From contig CAWFLZ010000010.1 in assembly GCA_963816705.1 (NCBI GenBank), positions 153,157 through 217,156 on the forward strand: 64,000 bases of DNA. Direction: 5' to 3'. The notes beneath the pieces are model-generated. The model made no database searches. It was not told where the DNA came from and saw only the letters and a program-made list of their open reading frames with translations. Position numbers and translations under genes: made by a program. The stretch comes from an uncultured Acidobacteriaceae bacterium (GTDB lineage Bacteria > Acidobacteriota > Terriglobia > Terriglobales > Acidobacteriaceae). Shown here piece by piece: positions 4,274 to 58,700 of this stretch (positions are counted from its first letter, which is position 1; each line of letters begins with the position of its first letter).

Positions 4274-6787
4274 ATGGCGACTTCGACTCGCAATGCAGCG
4301 GGGACTCGGGGACTTGCGACTTCCGAACCCAGTGAGGATTTTGAACGCGAACGGGTGTTTGGACTGTTTCGGCAGTTTGGCTATCTGGAAGCCGAACTGA
4401 ATCCGCTGGGGCTTTTGCCTCCGCAGCCTCATCCAGACCTGCGGTTTGATAACGGCAAAGACAGCGAACCGGCCCGCGAGGCGCGGCGGATTTATTGCGG
4501 CAGCGTGGGCGTCGAGTTCATGCACATCGCCGACTCCGAACGCCGGCGCTGGATCCAGGAGCGCATGGAGGCCGAACCGGCTGAGGTCGACCGCCAGCGC
4601 GCTCTCGATTTGCTGATGCGCGCCGATCTCTTCGAGCAGACTCTGCAGCAGCGCTATCTCGGGCAACAAGCGATTTTCGCTGGAGGGCAACACCTCTCTG
4701 TTGCCGGCGGTGGATGAGATTCTGGACGTAGCCGGCGAGCGGGGCGCGCTCGAACTGGTGATGGGCATGAGCCATCGCGGCCGCCTGAACGTGATTATTC
4801 ACGTGGCCACGCGGCCGGCGGAAGAGGTGTTTGCCGAGTTTGAGGATGTCGATCCGCGCAGCGTGCTCGGGTCGGGCGACGTGAAGTATCACATCGGCGC
4901 GACCGGCGAGTATGTTACGAAGAGCGGAAAGAAAATTCACATTCATCTGGCGTCGAATCCCAGCCACCTCGAAGCGGTCGATCCGGTGACGGTGGGCCGC
5001 ACGCGCGCCAAGCAGGATCGTTCCGGCGAAGGTGGCCGCGCGAAGTTTTTGCCGCTGCTGGTGCACGGCGACGCGGCGTTTGCGGGACAGGGAATCACGG
5101 CCGAGACGCTGAATTACGCGGACCTGGCGGGTTACACGGTGGGTGGAACGATTCACTTGATCGTGAATAACCTGATTGGCTTCACAACCAACGCGCGCGA
5201 CGAGCATTCATCGCGTTTTTCGGCGCAGTTGGCGCGGCGGCAGGCGATTCCGATTTTTCATGTGAACGGCGAAGATGTGGACGCGGTTATCCGCATTGCG
5301 CGCCTGGCGGCGGAGTATCGCTACACCTTCGGCAGCGATGTGGTCGTGGATTTGATCGGATACCGTCGCCACGGCCACAGCGAAGTCGACGATCCCACGG
5401 TGACGCAGCCGCTGATGTACAAGGCGATCAAAGAGCATCGTCCGCTCTTTGAGATTTACGCCAAGCAAATCGGCGCGGACAAGTTCGCCGAACAGGCCGC
5501 GGCCATCAAGGCGGGTTCGAGGCCGCGCAGAAAGCGGCTGCGCAAGCGACCAAGAAGCCGCTGCTGCGCGACTTGCCCGGTTACTGGAGCCAATACTTCG
5601 GCGGGAGATACAAGGCTGAGTATGAACAGCCCACTGGCCTATCGCGCGAGGAGTTGGCGGCGTTAACCGCGCGCCTGACCACTTACCCGGAGGGATTTCA
5701 TATCCATCCCAAGGTAAAGAAGTTGCTGGAGCAGCGCGCGGAGATGGGGAATGGAAAGAAGCCTCTGGATTACGGCATGGCCGAGGCTCTGGCGTTTGCG
5801 AGCTTGGTGAAGCAGGGAATTCCGGTGCGCATGAGCGGCCAGGATTCACGGCGCGCAACTTTTAACCAGCGGCACTCGGTGCTCATCGATACCGAGAATG
5901 AGAATGAGTATGTTCCGTTGTGCCACATTGCCGACGGCCAGGCTCCTTGCCAGATCTACAACTCCCCGCTCTCGGAGGCAGGCGTGATGGGATTCGAATA
6001 CGGCTACAGCCGCGATTATCCCGAGGCGCTCGTGTTGTGGGAGGCGCAGTTCGGAGATTTTGCGAACGTCGCGCAGGCGATCATCGATCAGTTTGTAAGC
6101 GCGGGCGAGGATAAGTGGGGCCTGCTCTCGGGCCTCGTGCTGCTCCTGCCACACGGCTACGAAGGCCAGGGGCCGGAGCATTCGTCGGCCCGCATCGAGC
6201 GATTTTTGCAGCTCGCTGCGCGCGACAATTTCCAGATCTGCCAGCCCTCGAACGCCGCGCAATATTTCCATCTGCTGCGGCGGCAGGCGCTGCGTCACTG
6301 GAGAAAGCCGCTGGTCGTGTTTACGCCCAAGAGCATGTTGCGCAATCCCGATGCTCTGTCTCCGCTGGAAGATCTGACCCATCAGCGGTTCTTGCCGGTG
6401 ATTCCAGATAACGAGGCGCAGGACGCGAAGCGAATCTTGATCTGCACCGGCAAAATTGGCCATGAACTGCGCGCCGAGCGATTGCGGCGCAAGGATATGA
6501 GCACGGCGATTGTTTTCCTGGAGCAAATGTATCCCTTCCCGGAGGCCGAGATCGCAGCCGAATTCGAGCGCCACCGCACGGCCCGCGATATTGTCTGGGT
6601 GCAGGAAGAGCCGTCAAATATGGGCGCGCTCTTTTACATGCTGCCGCGACTGAAGAGAATTGCGGGTGATCGGCCGGTGCTTTCGGTGAAACGATCGGGC
6701 AGCGCGAGTCCGGCAACGGGATCGGCGAAGGCGCATGAGGTGGAGCAGAAAACGATTCTCGCGCTGGCGTTTACGACGCAGGGGTAG
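4274..6787 (+). pseudogene. sucA: 2-oxoglutarate dehydrogenase E1 component (SucA), split into three frames by two 1-bp indels
   Basis: ORFs 4274..4717, 4701..5666 and 5573..6787 each read as genuine SucA. The GQKRFSLEG motif is broken by an extra C near 4667 (caaCaagcga). A T is missing near 5517 (ggtttcgag reads ggttcgag). The N- and C-terminal segments are in the same frame and the middle 870 bp is in another frame. Confidence 0.85.
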
Positions 6788-50584: not shown

Positions 50585-51740
50585 CTAGCGCAAGGGCAGG
50601 CTCGCTTCGGCGGAGAAATCGATCGGAGCAAATTCCTGGCGCAGAAATTTTGGAAAGGCAGCGGCGGCGATCATCGCCGCATTGTCGGTGGAAAGAGGCC
50701 GCGAAGGGAAGAAAACGGGAAGGCCTTGCATCTCCGCTTCGCGCTGAAAGGTGGCGCGCAGTTCGCGGTTCGCGGCTACGCCGCCGCTGACGAAGAGCGT
50801 GCGAACCTCATATTCGCGCGCGGCAGCCAGCGTCTTGGTTACGAGGTCGTTCACCATGGCGCGCTGGAATGACGCCACCAGATTGAGCGTCTGGCGATCG
50901 CACAGGCGCAGATAGTCGTCCAAGGTGGGATTAACGATCTCCTGTAGAGATTTTCGCCGCCGCCTCGATCGCCGGCTGTAGTCGCTCGGTTTCAACGTAG
51001 CGCAAAACTGCCGTCTTGATTCCGCTGTAGGAAAAATCAAAACGTGGACGAGCGTCCGACGATGAAGTGTGCATACTGCGGTCGTTGCGATCGCGATGCT
51101 TGATTTGCGCAATCTGGAATTTGACGGCGTGTGGATCGCCGCGCGGAGCGAGCCGATCAATGATGGGACCTCCGGGATATCCGAGCGCGAGGAGTTTGGC
51201 GACTTTGTCGAAGGCTTCGCCGGCGGCGTCGTCGCGGGTGTGGCCGATCTCGGCGTAGGTCCAAAGATTCTTGTCGACCTCGGCGAGATAGAGATGCGTG
51301 TGGCCTCCCGAAACGACGAGGGCGAGAACCGGGAATTCCAGCTCAGGATTTTCGGCCTGTCGCTGCTCTAGCAGTACAGCGTGCACGTGGCCTTCAAGAT
51401 GGTTGACCGCTATCAGCGGTTTGCCGAGTGCAAACGAAAGCGCCTTGGCGAAGCTGATGCCGACCAGCAACGCGCCTGCTAAACCCGGACCTTGCGTGAC
51501 GGCGATGGCATCGATGGAGTCGTAAGTGTGTCCAGCCTCAGCGAGCGATTGGCGCACGACTGGAATGATGGCGTGCAAATGCTCGCGGGAGGCGAGTTCG
51601 GGCACAACTCCGCCATAAGGCTGATGGGTGGCGATTTGCGAGGCCACGACGTTCGAGAGAATCTGCTCTCCCGCGCGCACCACGGCTGCGCCTGTTTCGT
51701 CGCAGGAGCTTTCGATGCCGAGGATGATGGCGTCGGGCAT
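50585..51740 (-). pseudogene. tsaD: tRNA N6-adenosine threonylcarbamoyltransferase TsaD (Kae1/Gcp), 1-bp homopolymer insertion
   Basis: ORF 50931..51740 (N-terminal two-thirds: [18 protein letters not shown]) and the 3' part of ORF 50585..51160 ([18 protein letters not shown]...VSGGVAANRELR...STDNAAMIA). An extra A in an A-run near 50962 breaks ...[17 protein letters not shown].... Confidence 0.9.
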
Positions 51741-51820
51741 AATTGGTGTGCAGCTGCTAGCTTCCAGCCGCTAGCTTTTAGCTTGTTTCTCCCAGTCTAG
51801 CCGATTGGTGCGAGTGCTTC

Positions 51821-53191
51821 TTGAGTACTGCCAAACAACACGCTACCAATATCGTGCGCGCACTGCGCGAGCGCGGGTATCAGGCCTATTTCGCAGGCGG
51901 ATGCGTCCGCGACTTGCTGCTGGGCCGCGAGCCTGCTGATTACGACGTCGCTACCGACGCAACTCCGCAGCAGGTCATGCAGATCTTTCCTCGAACCTTT
52001 GCTGTCGGGGTGCAGTTTGGGGTGGTGCTGGTTCCGGAGAAACCGGCAACCACGGAGGACACAGAGGAACAGGGAGGAAAGGCAACGGCTGTTGAAGTCG
52101 CGACCTTTCGTTGCGACATCGGCTACTCCGATGGGCGACATCCCGATGAGGTGCGATTCACCAAGGATCCTCGCGAGGATGTGCAGCGGCGCGATTTCAC
52201 TATCAACGGCATGTTGCTTGATCCGCTGGTGTCCGACGCGACGAAGGATAACGTGCTCGATTTCGTCGGGGGACGCGAGGACCTGAAGGCTGGCATCGTT
52301 CGCGCTATCGGAGAGCCTTCGCGACGGTTTGCGGAAGACAAGCTGCGCATGTTGCGGGCTGTGCGTTTCGCGGCGCGGTTTGATTACAGGATCGATCCGG
52401 CGACTTTCTCGGCGATCCAGCAACTGGCGCCGCAGATTCATCAGGTCTCGCAGGAGCGGGTGCGCGAAGAGCTGACCAAGATGCTCACTGAAGGCAGCGC
52501 GCGACGCGCATTTTTGCTGCTTGATGAGAGCGGGTTGCTGCGCGAAGTTTTGCCCGAGATTTCGGCGATGAAGGGCGTGGAGCAGCCTCCGCAGTTTCAT
52601 CCCGAGGGGGACGTTTTTGTACATACATTGCTCCTGCTTGAAAAATTGCCGGCGGGCTCGTCGAAGACGCTGACATGGGGAGCGCTGCTGCATGATGTGG
52701 GCAAGCCGGCCACGTTTCGGGTTGCGCCGGATCGCATTCGATTCGACGGGCATGTCGACGTCGGCGTGAAGATGGCTGCCGAAATTTGCCGCCGCTTGCG
52801 ATTTTCGAACGACGAGACGGAACAGATTCTGGCGCTGGTCGACCATCACATGCGCTTTGCTCAGGTGCGGCAGATGAACGAATCGACGCTCAAGAAATTT
52901 CTTCGGCTGCCGCAATTTGATGAGCACCTGGAACTGCATCGCATGGATGTGCTCTCGAGCAACGGGATTCTCTCCGGATACGAATATGCGCGAGAGCGAT
53001 TGCAGTCGATGGCGCCGGAGGCGATGCGTCCGCAGCCGCTGGTTACGGGCAACGATTTGATTGCGGCCGGGTATGAGCCGGGGCCGCGGTTCACGGAAAT
53101 TCTGGACGCGGTCGAGGACGCGCAGCTCGAAGGACGCATTGCTTCGCGAGAGGCTGCGATGGAGTACGTGCTCCACGAATTCCCTGCGTAG
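51821..53191 (+). CDS. cca: CCA-adding tRNA nucleotidyltransferase (PolyA_pol head plus HD domain)
   Basis: 456 aa. GGCVRDLLLGREPADYDVAT and RRDFTING (nucleotidyltransferase), with HD-domain HD..H motifs in the C-terminal half. Confidence 0.9.
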   Translation: MSTAKQHATNIVRALRERGYQAYFAGGCVRDLLLGREPADYDVATDATPQQVMQIFPRTFAVGVQFGVVLVPEKPATTEDTEEQGGKATAVEVATFRCDIGYSDGRHPDEVRFTKDPREDVQRRDFTINGMLLDPLVSDATKDNVLDFVGGREDLKAGIVRAIGEPSRRFAEDKLRMLRAVRFAARFDYRIDPATFSAIQQLAPQIHQVSQERVREELTKMLTEGSARRAFLLLDESGLLREVLPEISAMKGVEQPPQFHPEGDVFVHTLLLLEKLPAGSSKTLTWGALLHDVGKPATFRVAPDRIRFDGHVDVGVKMAAEICRRLRFSNDETEQILALVDHHMRFAQVRQMNESTLKKFLRLPQFDEHLELHRMDVLSSNGILSGYEYARERLQSMAPEAMRPQPLVTGNDLIAAGYEPGPRFTEILDAVEDAQLEGRIASREAAMEYVLHEFPA

Positions 53192-53384
53192 ATTTCGACG
53201 CTTTTGCGACATTCTCTTTTTTGCGGGAAGTGTTTGATTCTGTTGAATTTGTTGGCGAAATTCAGCAAAATGTGTACCCCCTCCCCCCTATCATTTTTAG
53301 TTAAAGTGTTGATAAATATGTACTTACACTCAAAGTATTCAAGAATAAAGAGTTAGCCCCTAAACCCGGGCTGAAAATAGTTTT

Positions 53385-53436
53385 GGGGCAGCTTCGAGAA
53401 CCGTCCTGGTTGGCGGACGCACCTCGGAGCTGCCCC
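53385..53436 (+). terminator. Hairpin downstream of cca (14-bp stem with one mismatch)
   Basis: ggggcagcttcgag ... ctcggagctgcccc. It follows the AT-rich spacer 53200..53380 and has no strong T-run. Confidence 0.3.
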
Positions 53437-53523
53437 ATTCAGAGCTCGATTGTTGCATGCGGCAGATTAGAAGTCTGTGACGGCGCGCACTGGCTGATTG
53501 TGATGAAAAAGGTTTTGGTCTGA

Positions 53524-53703
53524 TACGCTCGCGGCATCCGGCAAAAACCGGTGAACGTCCTGTCTGTCCCCGTATTTTCCGTCCCCGTATTTTCCCACGA
53601 GGTACGCGGACGGCAGACGGTCGAGGAGTTCGTGCGCCTGGAAGCGGCCCACGACTTGAACCATCTTCGGCAGATCGACCGCACCTTGGGTGGGTGCATG
53701 TAG
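53524..53703 (+). pseudogene. 3'-terminal fragment of a DinB/YfiT-like (HxxxH..GQI) gene, copy 1 of a direct repeat, containing a 15-bp perfect tandem duplication
   Basis: It reads ...VPVFSVPVFSHEVRGRQTVEEFVRLEAAHDLNHLRQIDRTLGGCM and then stops. The tandem duplication gtccccgtattttcc x2 is at 53566..53595. About 90% identical to 54690..54812. Confidence 0.4.
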
Positions 53704-53726
53704 TGGTAGGGCGGGGATGTTCTTTT

Positions 53727-54146
53727 TCACCTCGCGATTCTCTTCCCGCCTGCGGCAAAACCAGTCTTCCGTTTGCCGCCGCCAAATGTCTGACGCTTTT
53801 TATCGTCCCTGAGGCGGACAGCCGTGGGCGTAGAAGAGCCGACAGCAGCGGCGAACGCGGCGGGATTCAGCGCAGTGAGCACGGCAGCGGGATTCTTGTC
53901 GATGACAGTGAGCAAAGTGCGAGCCGGAGCTTCTGGGCTCCTTCGCCCGCCCTCCCAGTGCTTGATAGCGTCAAGGCTGAATCCGAACGTGTTGGAGAAT
54001 CTGGCTTGTGTCATGCCAAGGCGATTTCGGATCGCTTTCACGTCAACCTCCTCGGGCACATGCGCCTTGAATCCTTCTTGCTCCCCAGCAAGGAAAGCCT
54101 CAACGTCGTTCAGGCCATTCATCATCTGCGCGAATTGCGTTTTCAT
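53727..54146 (-). CDS. XRE-family HTH antitoxin (HigA/DUF4415-like) of a RelE/HigB-like TA pair
   Basis: 139 aa. HTH around IRNRLGMTQARFSNTFGFSLDAIKHWEGGRRSP, with a C-terminal basic tail. Its start abuts the toxin stop. Confidence 0.7.
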   Translation of the reverse strand: MKTQFAQMMNGLNDVEAFLAGEQEGFKAHVPEEVDVKAIRNRLGMTQARFSNTFGFSLDAIKHWEGGRRSPEAPARTLLTVIDKNPAAVLTALNPAAFAAAVGSSTPTAVRLRDDKKRQTFGGGKRKTGFAAGGKRIAR

Positions 54147-54161
54147 GCTATCTCCCTGGGT

Positions 54162-54529
54162 TCAGAAAATGCCCTCAAAAATGCTATCGGCCCGTTTCCT
54201 GAGTGTGTTGCGCTCTGCCATGGACAGATTTTCTTTCTCATTCTTCGGAAAAACCGCAATGAGAAAAACCGGAAATCTCTGGTTGCGCCAGATATACACA
54301 ACCCGGGCCCCGCCGCTTTTCCCCATCCCTTTGCGTGCGACTTGGACCTTTTGCGTGCGACTCGGACCTTTCGAAACCCGCCCGTTCCACGGATCACGTC
54401 TCCACGCTCCGGGTCAGCCGCAACCAGTGCCACGATGTCAGCACGCTCCTCCTCGCTAAAGAGCCTGTTGGCAATCGCGAGGTAAGTAGGCGTTTCGACA
54501 ACCGTCTGCACAATTCTCTTGTACTCCAT
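54162..54529 (-). pseudogene. RelE/HigB-superfamily toxin (GKSGGxRViY type) inactivated by a 20-bp tandem duplication
   Basis: N-terminal frame MEYKRIVQTVVETPTYLAIANRLF...GGFRKVRVARK. Downstream frame GMGKSGGARVVYIWRNQRFPVFLIAVFPKNEKENLSMAERNTLRKRADSIFEGIF. The two are joined if one copy of ttgcgtgcgacttggacctt (54331..54350) / ttgcgtgcgactcggacctt (54351..54370) is removed. Confidence 0.7.
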
Positions 54530-54595
54530 TGGACACCATGAGTCAAGTGAATTGTGTGCCATTGGACACTAATGGTTTAGGAGCGCTTGGGTTAG

Positions 54596-54811
54596 GCGCA
54601 GCAAGATGCGAGCCTTTCGGCAGCGGTCTTTCGGACGCTGCGCGAGAGCAACCTGCGACTATTGGAGTCGGTCCCGCGCGCACGGTGGGTGGAGTGCTAT
54701 GGGGTCCACGAGGTGCGCGGTCGGCAAACGGTCGAGGAGTTCGTCCGCATGGAAGCGGCACACGACTTGAACCATCTTCGGCAAATCGACTGCATCTTGG
54801 GTGGGCGTAGG
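54596..54811 (+). pseudogene. C-terminal fragment (about 72 aa) of a DinB/YfiT-like gene, copy 2 of the direct repeat
   Basis: ...LRESNLRLLESVPRARWVECYGVHEVRGRQTVEEFVRMEAAHDLNHLRQIDCILGGRR and then stops. There is no N-terminal half, because the toxin gene occupies the upstream position on the opposite strand. Confidence 0.45.
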
Positions 54812-55065
54812 TAGTGGTAGCCGTTTGGCTGCCAACGCCTCGGTTCCCACGGCCGCCAATTGTGTAGGGGCAAAACCTCCGCTGCCGACGGTATTGCCGG
54901 GCCACTTCTCAAAAAGCGTGAGAAGTGGCGCACCCCCAGTTATTACGGGTTCGAGGCCTGAGAAGTGGCCCACCCGCCTCTTGCAAAAAACGCAAGGACG
55001 GGTCGCCCTCAATGGCAACGGTGCAAGCAAAAATCGCTAAGGTGGACCACCCCCAGGTTTCTCCG

Positions 55066-55623
55066 TCACTCTTTCAAGTAATGAAGCGCAACACCTCCTG
55101 ATTTAGAAATCTTCGATTCGACAAGTTTCAGTTGTAGGTTCTCCGGCAGATTGACACCATCAAACAACCGTCTTCCTTTCCCAACGATGACTGGCGAAAT
55201 GGCCACACGATATTCGTCAATCAGGCCAAGCTCCATCAGTTGTGAAGGAAGATCTACACCGCCGACCCAAATATTTTTGCCCGGTTCTTGCTTCAATCTA
55301 AGTATTTCGTCGCGAAGGTTCGAGCGAACGATTCTCGTATTTTTATCTTCAACGCGGTCCAATGATCGTGAAAAAACAATCTTTTCGAGGGAATCAAATG
55401 CCAGGGCAAATTCGTTCCCCTCCTTTGTCTCGGACTGGTTTTTTGCGATATCAGGCCAATAAGGAACCATCAATTGGTAGGTTTTACGCCCATAGACGAG
55501 CAGGCCAGCATCCTCTCGCAAGAGGCGCGTGTAGTGTTCCATTGCCGCTTCATCAGGAACGTGTTTGGTGTGGTCGCAGCAGCCGTCAAGGGTAAGGTTG
55601 ATGGCGAAGACTACATTTCTCAT
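55066..55623 (-). CDS. Dihydrofolate reductase-like (RibD C-terminal domain, YwjB/YyaP family) protein
   Basis: 185 aa. MRNVVFAINLTLDGC...VYGRKTY...IWVGGVDL is the RibD_C/DHFR-like signature. Confidence 0.75.
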   Translation of the reverse strand: MRNVVFAINLTLDGCCDHTKHVPDEAAMEHYTRLLREDAGLLVYGRKTYQLMVPYWPDIAKNQSETKEGNEFALAFDSLEKIVFSRSLDRVEDKNTRIVRSNLRDEILRLKQEPGKNIWVGGVDLPSQLMELGLIDEYRVAISPVIVGKGRRLFDGVNLPENLQLKLVESKISKSGGVALHYLKE

Positions 55624-55784
55624 TTGATCCCCTTTTTAGAGTTTTGCTTTTCGAGTAGATCAATGACATTGGCTCATCTCCGGCGCGGCTTCCATCGTCA
55701 TGATCAACGGGAGGCTGAAGGCCGGGAAATGCGGGGACGACGCGACGCTCACGTCATTTTCGGCGAAGCCCTGGGCCCTCCGGC

Positions 55785-58700
55785 CTAAGTCAATACAAAT
55801 CGCAGAAGTTCTGGAAACTTCTTTTCCGCGGATAGGACACGGATCTGCGCGGGTGATTCGAAACCTATTCCTCGTTCTGATCCCGGTCTTGCGAGTTGAC
55901 TGCGGCGGGATCGGCTGGGATTGGTTTTTGCAGATCGATCGGCGGGCTGGCCGGCTTTCTTCAGCTCCTCATTCAGTTGCGGAACATCTTTTGATTTGAG
56001 TTGAGACCACGCTGCCAACTGTTCATCGAGCGCCTTTTCCACTTCTCCGAACATTGAGACCTCCTGCGTGGTGGGGGCGGCGTCGGCGGTATCGAGTTGG
56101 GCTAGCATCGTGCCCAGGCCTCCATTGAGGCGGGCCAGGCTGCGGCCTTCGGGCGTGCTCAGGAAGCGAGAGCCATAGCCGCCTTCGCTGCCTTCGATGG
56201 CCGCGGCTTTGGCGTCGAGACTCTTGATGGATTCAGCCAGCGGGGATGGCGGATTCTTCGCGCTCGCGGCTTTCAGTTGCGAGCGCAGGCTGCGCACCTG
56301 TTGCAGGGCTTCATGGTCGCGGTGGAGGGCGTCGGCGATTTTGCGGTCGAGGTCGAACTGGCGGCGGAGGTCTCTCGGGCAAGGTTTTCACGCGCGGGTC
56401 CATGTGGATTTCGAGGGGCTGCGTGTAGGTTTTGCCATCGGCCGTTAGCTCCAAGCTGTACTTGCCCGGCAAAACCTTGGCGCCCTCCGGGTAGAGCGGA
56501 GTGTCGTGAGGGATCGCGGAGATCGGGAAGTCGCGACTGAGCAGGTCGGGAACTGGATAGGTCAGGTCCCAGACGAAGCGGTGCATGCCGGGTGCGGCAG
56601 ACAGTATTCGCGGCGGGCGCACCCAGTACATCGGGACGTTGAAGTCTTTGGGATTAATCGGCTCGGGCTTGTCCGTGCTGGAGAAGCGGCGTACTAGCTT
56701 GCCGCTTGCATCTAGATTTCAATGACGACTGCGGGAGTCGCGTCCTTGAGCCAGTAGTCGATCATTGCGCCATCGGGCGGATTCTGGCCGGCGGGCTCTT
56801 CGGGTGGAAGCGGCGTGTCGGGATTGTTGTCGCGGCGCAGGCGATAGGTCAACGGCGGCTTGAACAAGTGGGCGGGGCTCTGCGGCAATCTTCGCGTCGA
56901 GCTGGCGCAGCGGCGTGATGTTGTCCAAAATCCAGAACGACCGGCCGTGCGTGCCTACTACCACGTCGTCGTTGTGGACGACCAGGTCACGAATCGAAGT
57001 GGGCGGCAGATTCAGCTTGAGCGATTGCCAGTGGTCGCCGTCGTCGAATGAAACATAGACGCTGCGCTCGGTTCCGGCGAAGAGCAGTCCTTTGCGTTCG
57101 GGGTCTTCGCGGACGGTGTTGACCGGTTCGTTATCGGGCAGGCCGGTCACGATCTTCTGCCAGGTCTTGCCGCCGTCGTGGGTGCGGTAGATATATGGAT
57201 GCAGGTCGTCGAGGCGGAAACGATTGACTGCGGCGTAGGCGGTTGCGGTATCGAAGTGCGACGCGTCCATCTGCGCTACCTTGCTCCAGGGCGTCAGATC
57301 AGGCGGAGTTACGTTTTGCCAGTTCTTGCCGGCGTCATGAGTTACTTGAATCAGGCCGTCGTCGGTGCCGACCCAGATCAGGTTGGCGTCTTTGGGCGAG
57401 GGTGCGATGGAATAAATCACGCCGCGATGCTTGCCTTTGGCGGGGTCGTCGTCAACGAACGCGCCTAGCGATGGAGGGACGCCGGCGTCGTCTTTTGTTA
57501 GATCGCGCGTCAGGTCTGGGCTGATGATTTGCCAGCTGTTGCCGCCATCGCGCGTCACGAACAAGACGTTCGAACCCAGATAGAGCGCGTGCTGATCGAC
57601 GGGCGAGAAAATCAGCGGCGCGGTGCGGTTGAAGCGGTACTGGCCGGTGCGGAGGACTACTGGGCCAACCTCGCGCGTCTGGCCGGTGTTGCGGTCGAAC
57701 ACGGTAACTTTGCCGCCGTAGATCAGATTCGGATGCAGCGGATCGGGCGCGACGTAGCCGTATTCTTCTACGCCGAGAGTGGTCCAGTCGCGAAAAGTGA
57801 TTTCGCCGAAGTCGCTGCGGCTGGCGGTGCCGACCGAGCCGCTTTCCTGCTGCCCACCGTAGACCCAATAGGGAAACTGGTTGTCGGTGATCACGTGATA
57901 GAACTGCGCTGTCGGCTGGTTATACCAACTGCTCCAGTGTCTGCCGCCGTTCACGCTGATGGTTGCGCCCTGGTCGACGGCGATGGCGATGATGTCGGGA
58001 TTTTCGGGATTGATCCAGATGGTGTGATAGTCGTCGCCGCCGGGCGCGCCCTTGATGGCGGTGAAATTTTTGCCGGCGTCGGTGGAACGGTAGGTGGACG
58101 TGTTGGCCACGTAAATGACGTCTTTGTTTCTGGGATCGACGCGGACGCAACCAAAGTCGTCGCCGCGGCCGTAGATGCGCTCTTCGCTGTTGACCTGCTG
58201 CCAGGATTCGCCGGCGTCGTCGGAGCGGTAGATGCCGCTGCCTAGCTTTGCATTCGGCTTCGTTACGTTGGACGTCGTTACGTTAACCCATGCATACATG
58301 CGTTCGGGATCGCTGGGGGAGATGGTTTGGCCGATGCGGCCGATGCCTTCGGCTTCGCCGGGCAATCCTTTGGTGAGTTGACGCCAGTTGTTGCCGCCGT
58401 CGGTCGATTTGTAGAGACCGCTGCCGGGGCCGTTGTAGGCGCCGCCGGTCGTCCAGGGCGGACGGCGCGAGGACCACATGCTGGCGAAGATTACCTGCGA
58501 GTTGCGAGGATCGAACGTCAGATCCATGCCGCCGACGTTCTCGTCTTTGTAGAGAACCTTTGTGAAGGTCTGGCCGCCGTCGAGCGAGCGGAAGATGCCG
58601 CGCTCGGCGTTGGGGCCGTAGGGATGGCCTTGGGCGGCGACGAAGAGGCGGTTGGGATCTTTGGGATCGACGATGATGGAGGCGATTTGCTGGGCGTCGC

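What the first reader, a model, noticed from the sequence alone, without database searches (positions are those of the whole stretch)
54331..54370. Toxin gene inactivated by a 20-bp tandem duplication while its antitoxin is intact
The two adjacent 20-mers ttgcgtgcgacttggacctt and ttgcgtgcgactcggacctt differ at 1 position. Deleting one copy restores a continuous RelE/HigB-type toxin (..GGFRKVRVARKGMGKSGGARVVYIWRNQRFPVFLIAVFPKNEKENLSMAERNTLRKRADSIFEGIF). Duplication-mediated toxin knock-out, leaving an orphan XRE antitoxin/regulator, is a recurring route of TA decay. It is mechanistically different from the 1-bp indels elsewhere in the window, so it is more likely biological.
Basis: seen in the sequence. 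Interest (0 to 1): 0.55.

Follow-up and report, generated by a model that had tools for sequence, protein, structure and literature searches.

The report
Toxin gene broken by 20-bp duplication
In a soil Acidobacteria genome, a real 20-base tandem duplication has knocked out the toxin gene of a HigB2/HigA2-type toxin-antitoxin pair while the antitoxin gene stays intact, which is an ordinary example of the known "toxin dies first" decay of these modules.

Summary
Window 54331-54350 and 54351-54370 are adjacent 20-mers with one mismatch. Nothing comparable occurs in 300 shuffles, and none of about 71 close relatives has the insertion. Deleting one copy restores a 115-aa protein that is 85-96% identical to more than 1000 full-length proteins. 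It matches Pfam RelE (PF06296) and Vibrio cholerae HigB-2 by sequence (E 4e-17) and by fold. The frameshift after Lys60 removes the equivalents of three of the four catalytic residues. The 139-aa HTH antitoxin and its two operator boxes are intact.

The duplication is not an assembly artefact. The same duplication with the same mismatch is in an ENA contig that lacks the window's 1-bp indels, and the Logan gene product implies it too. Those 1-bp indels split tsaD, so they are probably consensus errors.

The repaired gene shows dN/dS of 0.06-0.17, the same as intact pairs, so the duplication is the only evident lesion and is recent. The one mismatch falls in the codon of the catalytic Arg (CGA to CAA), which shows the lesion postdates the duplication event.

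In this cassette family, 14 relatives have a broken toxin with a full antitoxin; the reverse occurs once.

The parts
54351..54370 (-). Promoter-proximal copy of the 20-bp unit (coding strand AAGGTCCGAGTCGCACGCAA). It is in frame with the N-terminal part of the toxin and keeps the ancestral CGA codon for Arg56.
   Evidence: Arg56 is invariant in 18 aligned homologues and corresponds to catalytic Arg51 of VcHigB2.
54331..54350 (-). Distal copy of the 20-bp unit (AAGGTCCAAGTCGCACGCAA). It is in frame with the C-terminal part of the toxin and carries CAA (Gln) where the ancestral codon is CGA, a substitution that arose after the duplication.
   Evidence: The same base is present in L001. It is also implied by the exact 128-aa Logan product, which reads RSKSH.
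54162..54529 (-). HigB-2-type toxin pseudogene (348 nt of coding sequence plus the 20-nt insertion). The ATG is at 54529-54527 and the original stop at 54164-54162.
54143..54529 (-). The ORF actually open in the native sequence: 60 authentic residues followed by 68 out-of-frame residues (128 aa). Its TGA overlaps the antitoxin ATG (ATGA).
   Evidence: No Pfam hit. It is a singleton cluster in the 15-billion-protein collection.
53727..54146 (-). Intact antitoxin of 139 aa: a conserved N-terminal segment, an XRE/MqsA-type helix-turn-helix at about residues 35-90, and a basic variable tail.
54526..54536 (-). Operator-like box 2 (GTGTCCAATGG), which overlaps the toxin start codon.
   Evidence: Direct repeat D6. 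It is conserved in 20 of 20 relatives inspected. Its function is inferred.
54559..54569 (-). Operator-like box 1 (GTGTCCAATGG), 33 nt upstream of box 2. A -10-like hexamer follows it (CACAAT here, TACAAT in most relatives). Homology with other genomes ends about 15 nt further upstream.
   Evidence: No consensus sigma-70 promoter was found by the simple scan.
53595..53703 (+). Context: remnant of the 3' end of a DinB_2-family gene (codons about 135-170), next to the antitoxin's 3' end as in the intact loci L002 and L006.
54581..54814 (+). Context: a second DinB_2 remnant (codons 94-170, with an in-frame stop). It starts exactly where the cassette's upstream homology ends. Its last 115 nt are 90% identical to the left remnant.

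Best explanation
This is a chromosomal type II toxin-antitoxin cassette of the HigB-2/HigA-2 kind, with the toxin gene first and an autoregulated promoter. Its toxin gene has been turned into a pseudogene by one 20-bp tandem duplication. The duplication most likely arose by replication slippage at a 2-bp microhomology. It copies codons 54-60 (KVRVARK, strand beta-2, including the catalytic Arg) and shifts the frame by +2. The cell therefore makes at most a 128-aa product: the two N-terminal helices and beta-1/beta-2, followed by 68 nonsense residues. This product lacks beta-3, beta-4 and alpha-3 and the equivalents of catalytic Arg64, Tyr82 and Lys84, so it should not be able to cleave ribosome-bound mRNA. 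The antitoxin keeps its own Shine-Dalgarno sequence (GGGAG), its start codon, its full length and both operator boxes. It is probably still made and still represses the operon. The module is thus a non-addictive remnant at the first stage of the known two-step erosion, in which the toxin is lost before the antitoxin. One substitution has since accumulated in one copy, and the allele is shared by at least two strain-level variants. It is therefore fixed in a lineage rather than a transient or an artefact. Shown here: the duplication, the frameshift, family membership, loss of catalytic residues, antitoxin integrity and presence in independent assemblies. Inferred: loss of toxicity, continued antitoxin expression and the slippage origin.
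For: The duplication is real and non-random.

Repair restores a 115-aa ORF that is 85-96% identical to more than 1000 proteins of 115/116 aa.

The repaired protein matches PF06296 above its gathering score, PDB HigB-2 at E 4e-17, and HigB2 chains in the AF2 model plus Foldseek search at TM 0.57-0.71.

The catalytic residues of VcHigB2 are Arg51, Arg64, Tyr82 and Lys84 (PMC5416850). They map to R56, R69, F87 and K89 here, and the last three lie downstream of the frameshift.

The native product has no Pfam hit.

The antitoxin is full length and 75-89% identical to the antitoxins of relatives.

The operator boxes are conserved.

The same duplication and mismatch occur in L001, which is identical to the window across 50960-55945 but differs elsewhere by 43 substitutions and 6 one-bp indels. 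The exact frameshifted product is also in the Logan contig of ERR12040025.

The exact products occur on an NCBI contig of 357,861 bp, an ENA contig of 61,955 bp and a Logan contig of 993 bp.

dN/dS of the repaired toxin against relatives is 0.06-0.17, the same as for intact-intact pairs at 0.06-0.27. This means there was a single recent lesion.

Fourteen relatives have a disrupted toxin with a full antitoxin; one has the reverse, and only in the antitoxin tail.

Toxin-first erosion is documented (PMC13617665; PMC7167474).
Against: No raw reads were inspected. The three records could share a sample or a sequencing run, so their independence is not proven.

Toxicity of the repaired allele and non-toxicity of the native allele are untested.

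No consensus promoter was found by the simple scan, so expression of the antitoxin is assumed from conservation only.

The equivalent of Tyr82 is Phe in this whole family, so the catalytic mechanism is not identical to VcHigB2.

The lineage-private substitutions C42R and K22R in the toxin and E6A in the antitoxin leave open that the toxin was already attenuated before the duplication.
Confidence: 0.9

Rival explanations
1. The orphan antitoxin is retained because it is useful. It might neutralise incoming homologous HigB-2 toxins (anti-addiction) or act as a transcription factor. On this reading the toxin loss is an adaptive domestication step rather than neutral decay. This rival is compatible with the main explanation and differs only on why the remnant persists.
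For: The cassette family is very mobile and abundant in Terriglobales. About 80 loci share 80-90% nucleotide identity but have unrelated flanks. One MAG carries two copies, L018 and L054. The toxin family is common on plasmids, with 800 PLSDB records. Fourteen relatives keep a full antitoxin next to a dead toxin, and L053 and L057 appear to share a homologous old insertion, which suggests long persistence. Anti-addiction by chromosomal antitoxins is an established idea (PMC7354431).
Against: Persistence of the antitoxin after toxin loss is also what neutral decay predicts for a recent lesion. The window's antitoxin carries E6A at a position that is Glu in 65 of 67 relatives, within the presumed toxin-binding N-terminus. 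This fits relaxed constraint as well as anything else. No cross-neutralisation data exist.
Confidence: 0.2
2. The duplication is a reversible switch. Slipped-strand collapse of the two 20-mers would restore an active toxin at a useful frequency, making the toxin phase-variable.
For: Perfect or near-perfect short tandem duplications are known to revert far more often than point mutations (general knowledge). A collapse downstream of the mismatch would regenerate the wild-type Arg56 allele.
Against: Every record of this lineage carries the duplicated state. Neither exact repaired protein (Arg or Gln form) exists in the 15-billion-protein collection, which includes the same Logan run. A substitution has accumulated between the copies, which indicates long residence in the OFF state and lowers slippage efficiency. 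No other member of the family shows this duplication.
Confidence: 0.05
3. The 20-bp duplication is an assembly or polishing artefact, and the real genome has an intact toxin.
For: The window does contain consensus-type errors. It has six 1-bp indels relative to L001, one of which splits tsaD and others the 1072-aa BNR/Sortilin gene. The relatives come largely from Nanopore MAG projects (PMC12313526).
Against: The duplication with its internal mismatch is in the window and in ENA contig L001. The exact frameshifted product in a k-mer-based Logan contig implies it there too. L001 does not share any of the window's 1-bp indels. A 20-bp duplication with one diverged base is not a typical long-read error.
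Confidence: 0.03
4. The toxin is still made, either through programmed ribosomal frameshifting inside the repeat or as a two-piece protein using the internal ATG at Met62 (the 54-aa ORF 54162-54326 that gene callers annotate).
For: The 54-aa ORF is called as a gene in L001 with a weak RelE hit. The frameshifted ORF stays open for 68 codons.
Against: Restoring the frame needs a -1 shift at CGC AAA AGG, which is not an X XXY YYZ slippery site (read directly from the sequence). The result would also carry a 7-residue insertion in beta-2. The AAGGG run sits directly against the internal ATG with no spacer, so it would make a poor ribosome-binding site. A 54-aa fragment lacks alpha-1, alpha-2, beta-1, beta-2 and Arg56, and would not form the RelE fold.
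Confidence: 0.01

Closest known systems
Vibrio cholerae HigB-2/HigA-2 (PDB 5JA8, 5JAA, 8A0X; Hadzi et al. 2017, PMC5416850)
   Same: The toxin-first gene order is the same. The toxin has the same fold and about 40% identity over 93 residues (E 4e-17; Foldseek TM 0.57-0.71). The motif GTGG-x-RK-x-RVA-x-KG-x-GK-x-GG-x-R is conserved, with the equivalents of Arg51, Arg64 and Lys84 present. The antitoxin has a C-terminal HTH that matches HigA-2 weakly (E 3e-3).
   Different: Tyr82 is Phe throughout this family. The antitoxin is longer, at 139 aa against 104 aa, and carries a basic tail. Its best matches are NadS/MqsA-type HTH and Atu1735 rather than HigA-2. The host is Acidobacteriota and there is no integron context. 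Here the toxin gene is broken.
Plasmid-borne HigBA2 modules such as those of Acinetobacter baumannii (PMC5906591)
   Same: The toxin family is the same. tblastn finds it on 800 PLSDB plasmids, 302 of them from Acinetobacter.
   Different: All plasmid matches are below 60% identity. This copy is chromosomal, lying between the cca/tsaD genes and a RibD_C gene, and it is inactivated.
Documented toxin-first erosion of chromosomal TA systems (ccdO157 in E. coli, Mine et al. 2009, cited in PMC7167474; Photorhabdus, Belot et al. 2026, PMC13617665)
   Same: The toxin is pseudogenised while the antitoxin is intact. The module lies in a small variable islet between core genes. In Photorhabdus, 185 copies had only the toxin pseudogenised against 8 with only the antitoxin. 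Here the ratio among relatives is 14 to 1.
   Different: The lesion type differs. Those studies report mainly truncations, point mutations and small deletions, whereas this one is a clean 20-bp tandem duplication.

Membership tests
HigB-2 / Pfam PF06296 (RelE-superfamily ribosome-dependent mRNase toxin) | The sequence matches the family profile above the curated threshold. | tested here: met
   The repaired protein scores 40.4 bits against a gathering score of 27, E 4.1e-10. The native frameshifted product gives no hit. All listed homologues carry PF06296.
HigB-2 / Pfam PF06296 (RelE-superfamily ribosome-dependent mRNase toxin) | RelE-like fold (alpha1-alpha2-beta sheet-alpha3) resembling solved HigB-2. 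| tested here: met
   phmmer against PDB HigB-2 gives E 3.7e-17. The AF2 model (mean pLDDT only 61.7) has H14-23, H26-38, E53-58, E67-72, E85-88 and H97-114. The Foldseek top 11 are all HigB2 chains, E 6.5e-8 to 1.9e-5.
HigB-2 / Pfam PF06296 (RelE-superfamily ribosome-dependent mRNase toxin) | Active-site residues Arg51, Arg64, Tyr82 and Lys84 (VcHigB2 numbering). | tested here: inconclusive
In the native sequence only R56 remains in frame.
HigB-2 / Pfam PF06296 (RelE-superfamily ribosome-dependent mRNase toxin) | Growth inhibition / mRNA cleavage, neutralised by the cognate antitoxin. | not testable with these tools
   This needs a kill-rescue assay with the repaired and native alleles.
HigBA-type type II TA operon | Toxin gene upstream of the antitoxin gene in one operon, with a short intergenic gap. 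| tested here: met
   The toxin is at 54529-54162 and the antitoxin at 54146-53727, on the same strand. The original gap is 15 nt and contains GGGAG. The same layout is found in all relatives.
HigBA-type type II TA operon | The antitoxin is an XRE/Cro-type helix-turn-helix DNA-binding protein. | tested here: inconclusive
   The hits are significant but fall below the curated cut-offs: NadS 50.6 bits against 60, MqsA_antitoxin 28.6 against 30, HTH_3 17.8 against 23. PDB matches are Atu1735 at E 4e-8, MqsA at E 7e-5 and HigA-2 at E 3e-3.
HigBA-type type II TA operon | Autoregulation through palindromic or repeated operators in the promoter. | tested here: inconclusive
   Two GTGTCCAATGG boxes lie 33 nt apart and are conserved across relatives. 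Binding was not tested, and the simple scan found no consensus promoter.
Eroded TA module (toxin-first pseudogenisation) | The toxin ORF is disrupted relative to intact orthologues while the antitoxin ORF is full length. | tested here: met
Eroded TA module (toxin-first pseudogenisation) | The lesion is genuine, not a sequencing or assembly error. | tested here: met
   The lesion is shared with L001, which lacks the window's 1-bp indels. The exact Logan product also implies it. Raw reads were not examined.

The most novel reading that the evidence does not exclude
The dead-toxin cassette is not junk. The retained, still-autoregulated antitoxin could serve as immunity (anti-addiction) against a highly mobile HigB-2 cassette family circulating among soil Terriglobales. 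The near-perfect 20-bp duplication could also keep the toxin in a revertible OFF state, so that the locus toggles between addiction module and immunity gene.
Probability: 0.07. Interest if true: 0.45.

Novelty: new member of a known kind. Interest (0 to 1): 0.15.

Why it matters
The finding adds little on its own. It is one more example of toxin-first erosion of a chromosomal toxin-antitoxin module, in a poorly studied phylum and through a less commonly reported lesion type (a microhomology-flanked tandem duplication).

Its practical value is twofold. First, it is a clean and well-supported case for annotation: the 54-aa "RelE" gene and the 128-aa ORF that gene callers report are fragments of one pseudogene. 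Second, it provides an internal control that separates true lesions from consensus errors in long-read MAGs. The 1-bp indels are not reproduced between assemblies, whereas the duplication is.

The wider pattern seen on the way could be useful material for studying TA turnover and orphan-antitoxin retention. That pattern is a compact cassette of about 870 bp, spread through Terriglobales with unrelated flanks, carrying a dead toxin with a full-length antitoxin in 14 of about 71 close copies.

Tried and rejected
1. Assembly artefact. Rejected because the duplication and its mismatch recur in L001 and are implied by the Logan product, while the window's 1-bp indels do not recur.

2. Search for the duplicated junction in JGI metagenomes (GTCGCACGCAAAAGGTCCRAGTCGCACGC) and for the cassette/DinB junction (AATGGTTTAGGAGCGCTTGGGTTAGG). 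Both gave 0 hits, so no further instances and no pre-duplication allele in the same context were found.

3. Exact look-up of the repaired protein in its Arg and Gln forms. Neither is in the collection, so there is no evidence for a co-existing intact allele.

4. Programmed frameshift or split toxin. Rejected from the sequence: there is no slippery heptamer and no spaced ribosome-binding site before Met62.

5. The idea that the 54-aa ORF clusters with real 834-aa fusion proteins. The cluster mates P0123-P0127 are unrelated sequences, so this is a clustering artefact.

6. Test for relaxed selection on the toxin. dN/dS is indistinguishable from that of intact pairs. Private changes are too few to interpret: 1 synonymous and 2 nonsynonymous.

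7. Integron, attC or known RNA element at the cassette ends. Rfam gave nothing relevant.

8. Promoter scan. No consensus sigma-70 site was found.

9. Mobile-element carriage. The IMG/VR scan gave only one distant hit at 39% identity, and all plasmid hits are below 60%.

10. The origin of the DinB remnants on both sides (tandem duplication of a DinB-TA segment versus insertion into a resident DinB gene) could not be resolved.

Full report
**Observation.**
The + strand of the window reads ...CCC TTTGCGTGCGACTTGGACCT TTTGCGTGCGACTCGGACCT TTCG.... Tandem Repeats Finder reports 54330-54371 with period 20, 2.1 copies, 95% identity and score 77, the highest of 39 arrays in the window. A base-by-base comparison shows 54330-54351 matching 54350-54371 at 21 of 22 positions. 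The single mismatch is T at 54343 against C at 54363. The unit is therefore 20 bp, bounded by 2 bp of microhomology. In 300 shuffles of the window, the best 20-nt match at offset 20 never exceeded 17 of 20.

**What the duplication interrupts.**
The minus strand carries an ORF starting MEYKRIVQ at ATG 54529-54527. In the native sequence it reads 60 sensible residues and then 68 out-of-frame residues (128 aa). It ends in a TGA that overlaps the ATG of the next gene. Removing the other copy gives the same protein with Gln56 in place of Arg56.

The repaired protein passes Pfam PF06296 (RelE) at 40.4 bits against a cut-off of 27, whereas the native product hits nothing. It has more than 1000 homologues, the best 120 being 85-96% identical and mostly 115/116 aa long. 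An alignment of 18 of them runs straight through the repair junction, and G51-F52-R53-K54-V55-R56 and G61-M62-G63-K64-S65-G66-G67-A68-R69 are invariant.

The closest solved structures are Vibrio cholerae HigB-2 chains, at E 3.7e-17 with an ungapped alignment over 93 residues. An AlphaFold2 model of only moderate confidence (mean pLDDT 61.7) shows the helix-helix-strands-helix order. Its eleven best Foldseek matches in the PDB are all HigB2 chains, with TM 0.57-0.71.

Hadzi et al. 2017 (PMC5416850) showed that Arg51, Arg64, Tyr82 and Lys84 of VcHigB2 are needed for activity, with 170- to 3000-fold losses on mutation. By the ungapped alignment these residues correspond to R56, R69, F87 and K89 here. 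The duplication copies codons 54-60 (KVRVARK, strand beta-2), and the frameshift begins at residue 61. R69, F87, K89, strands beta-3 and beta-4 and helix alpha-3 are therefore all lost. Loss of function is an inference, but a strong one.

**The single mismatch.**
The promoter-proximal copy (54351-54370) has CGA, encoding Arg56, the state found in every homologue. The distal copy (54331-54350) has CAA, encoding Gln. The difference must have arisen after the duplication. It happens to fall in the codon of the catalytic Arg51 equivalent. With one event, nothing can be concluded about selection. It does show that the duplicated state has existed long enough to collect a substitution.

**The antitoxin.**
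The downstream gene (54146-53727, 139 aa) has significant but sub-threshold matches to NadS, MqsA-type antitoxin and XRE helix-turn-helix models. In the PDB it matches Atu1735, MqsA and HigA-2. In relatives the homologous protein is 133-140 aa long. It is 75-89% identical over the full length and ends in the same GGKRIAR motif in the closest ones. The gene is therefore intact, and the basic C-terminal tail is a family feature rather than a read-through.

The gene keeps a GGGAG Shine-Dalgarno sequence upstream of its ATG. Upstream of the toxin, two GTGTCCAATGG boxes lie 33 nt apart, the second overlapping the toxin ATG. They are conserved in all 20 relatives inspected, and homology with other genomes stops about 15 nt beyond the first box. 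I take these boxes to be the operators, which is an inference. The simple sigma-70 scan found no consensus promoter.

**Is the duplication real?**
The exact antitoxin sequence occurs on an NCBI contig of 357,861 bp, on ENA contig ERZ25039558:contig_113169 (61,955 bp, fetched as L001) and on a 993-bp Logan contig of run ERR12040025. L001 contains both 20-mers with the same mismatch. The Logan contig encodes the exact 128-aa frameshifted product, including the RSKSH residues that depend on the mismatch.

L001 is not a copy of the window. Over 12.4 kb the two differ by 43 substitutions and six 1-bp indels, all outside 50960-55945. In the window those indels split tsaD into 269-aa and 191-aa ORFs and break a BNR/Sortilin gene that is 1072 aa in L001. 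The 1-bp indels are thus not reproduced between assemblies and are probably consensus errors, whereas the duplication is reproduced. Raw reads could not be examined, and I cannot exclude that the three records come from one sample.

**Age, and other lesions.**
None of about 71 close relatives in the species-representative genomes (mostly Terriglobales / Candidatus Sulfotelmatobacter MAGs) has the insertion. Neither form of the exact repaired protein is in the 15-billion-protein collection. Two junction-specific patterns found nothing in the JGI metagenomes.

Pairwise dN/dS of the repaired toxin against seven intact relatives is 0.06-0.17, within the 0.06-0.27 seen among intact pairs. Apart from the duplication, the gene has only two lineage-private amino-acid changes, K22R and C42R, and the antitoxin has one, E6A. 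The duplication is therefore the only obvious lesion. It is recent relative to the split from the sampled relatives (dS of at least 0.19), yet old enough to be shared by two strain-level variants.

**Context.**
The conserved unit is compact, at about 53718-54583. It recurs at 80-90% nucleotide identity in dozens of genomes with unrelated flanks, as expected of a horizontally mobile TA cassette. The toxin family is also common on plasmids, with 800 PLSDB records, all below 60% identity.

In the window the cassette lies in a 1.9-kb islet between cca/tsaD and a RibD_C gene. It is flanked by two remnants of a DinB_2-family gene: 53595-53703 (codons about 135-170) and 54581-54814 (codons 94-170, with an in-frame stop). 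Their shared 115 nt are 90% identical. A full-length DinB gene adjoins the homologous cassette in L002 and L006 (convergent), in L032 and L038 (co-directional) and, 1.4 kb away, in L008. The left junction is ancestral and the right one is a rearrangement whose origin I could not resolve. The neighbourhood is a small graveyard, consistent with decay.

**Recurrence.**
Fourteen of the close relatives have a disrupted or 5'-truncated toxin next to a full-length antitoxin: L051, L053, L057, L058, L061-L065, L067, L070 and L079-L081. One relative (L015) has the reverse, and there the frameshift is only in the antitoxin's variable tail. At least nine of the fourteen have lesions larger than 1 bp, so they are not simply Nanopore errors.

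A clean tandem duplication was seen only in the window's lineage. L057 and L053 carry small, messy, partly repeat-like insertions.

Toxin-first, two-step erosion is established. In Photorhabdus, 185 copies had only the toxin pseudogenised against 8 with only the antitoxin (PMC13617665). Decay of chromosomal TA systems and anti-addiction are reviewed in PMC7167474, and orphan antitoxins in PMC7354431.

**Mechanism proposed.**
The sequence of events I propose is as follows:
- Replication slippage at an AA/AA microhomology produced a 20-bp tandem duplication.
- The duplication caused a +2 frameshift after Lys60.
- The resulting product lacks three of the four catalytic positions and half of the fold, so it has no toxin activity.
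- The antitoxin is still expressed and still represses the operon.
- The module is no longer addictive and is free to be deleted, unless the antitoxin is kept for cross-protection.

Confidence that this is a genuine toxin pseudogene with an intact antitoxin is about 0.9.

**Rivals.**
Four alternatives were considered:
- Artefact: about 0.03.
- Reversible switch: about 0.05. Every record shows the OFF state, and the copies have diverged.
- Residual expression by frameshifting or as a split protein: about 0.01. There is no slippery site and no spaced ribosome-binding site.
- Adaptive retention of the antitoxin: about 0.2. This rival is compatible with the main explanation.

**Verdict.**
It is a new member of a known kind, with interest of about 0.15.

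Noticed in passing
window 53595-53703 and 54581-54814 (+): Two 3' remnants of a DinB_2-family gene bracket the TA cassette as a 115-nt direct repeat at 90% identity. The right remnant starts exactly at the cassette's upstream homology boundary. Full-length DinB genes sit next to homologous cassettes in L002, L006, L008, L032 and L038, in three different arrangements. The origin could be a segmental duplication or an insertion into a resident DinB gene; this was not resolved.
   Followed up: partly
window 53550-53595 (+); L002 7358/7422 and 8597/8652; L008 9861/9917; L030 4202/4257; L061 2051/2108; L021 6808-6870: A motif of about 30 nt, GGrGAACGTCCCGTCTGTCCCCGGTTTTCC, recurs in intergenic DNA of many Terriglobales loci. 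It often occurs as inverted pairs that fold into hairpins of about 100 nt (-46 to -60 kcal/mol), resembling a REP or MITE element. The window has a half-element whose last 15 nt are perfectly doubled (53566-53595), lying directly against the truncated DinB remnant. In L002 and L021 copies lie against the cassette ends. There is no Rfam match.
   Followed up: partly
window 50959, 56375, 56714, 56882, 57936, 57941: Six 1-bp indels relative to the 99.6%-identical contig L001. The extra G at 50959 splits tsaD into 269-aa and 191-aa ORFs. Others break a BNR/Sortilin-like gene that is 1072 aa in L001. They are probably consensus errors in the window's assembly. Substitutions cluster at 56.6-58.8 kb, which suggests strain heterogeneity.
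   Followed up: yes
loci L051, L053, L057, L058, L061-L065, L067, L070, L079-L081 (toxin near 6001-6345 in most): Fourteen close relatives of the cassette have a disrupted or 5'-truncated toxin next to a full-length antitoxin. Only L015 shows the reverse, with a frameshift in the antitoxin tail. Some of the 1-bp lesions lie in Nanopore MAGs and may be errors.
   Followed up: partly
L053 about 6290 and L057 about 1660 (toxin codon 96/97): Two toxin pseudogenes from different MAGs carry similar 13- and 14-nt insertions at the same site (TCATGGAGA.. and TCATGAAGA..). This suggests a dead-toxin allele that has persisted and diverged while its antitoxin stayed intact.
   Followed up: no
window 54916-55056 (-): Three copies of a GAGAAGTGGCGCACCC-like repeat each form a terminator-like hairpin followed by a T-run, downstream of the RibD_C gene (55066-55623, -). 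A related GGCCACCCGCC motif follows the antitoxin in L006 and L008.
   Followed up: no
window 54526-54536 and 54559-54569 (-): Two GTGTCCAATGG boxes lie 33 nt apart, with a TACAAT-like hexamer and a TTGAC between them. They are conserved across all relatives inspected, and the second box overlaps the annotated toxin ATG. If TTGACT-17 nt-TACAAG were the promoter, the transcript would start inside the annotated N-terminus. The true start codon could then be the GTG at Val7, which would match the length of VcHigB2.
   Followed up: no
L002 5673-5805 (-): A tRNA-like match (31.2 bits, 133 nt) lies about 150 nt upstream of the intact TA cassette in the closest relative, a possible integration hotspot.
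   Followed up: no
protein cluster of the 54-aa ORF (P0122-P0127): The 54-aa C-terminal toxin fragment is grouped in the protein collection with unrelated 834-837-aa proteins. This is a clustering artefact, not a fusion.
   Followed up: yes
window antitoxin codon 6 (about 54129-54131) and toxin codons 22 and 42: The lineage has private substitutions at otherwise near-invariant positions. The antitoxin has E6A (Glu in 65 of 67 relatives), within the presumed toxin-binding N-terminus. The toxin has K22R (Lys in 58 of 60) and C42R (Cys in 58 of 61). The numbers are too small to test for relaxed selection.
   Followed up: partly
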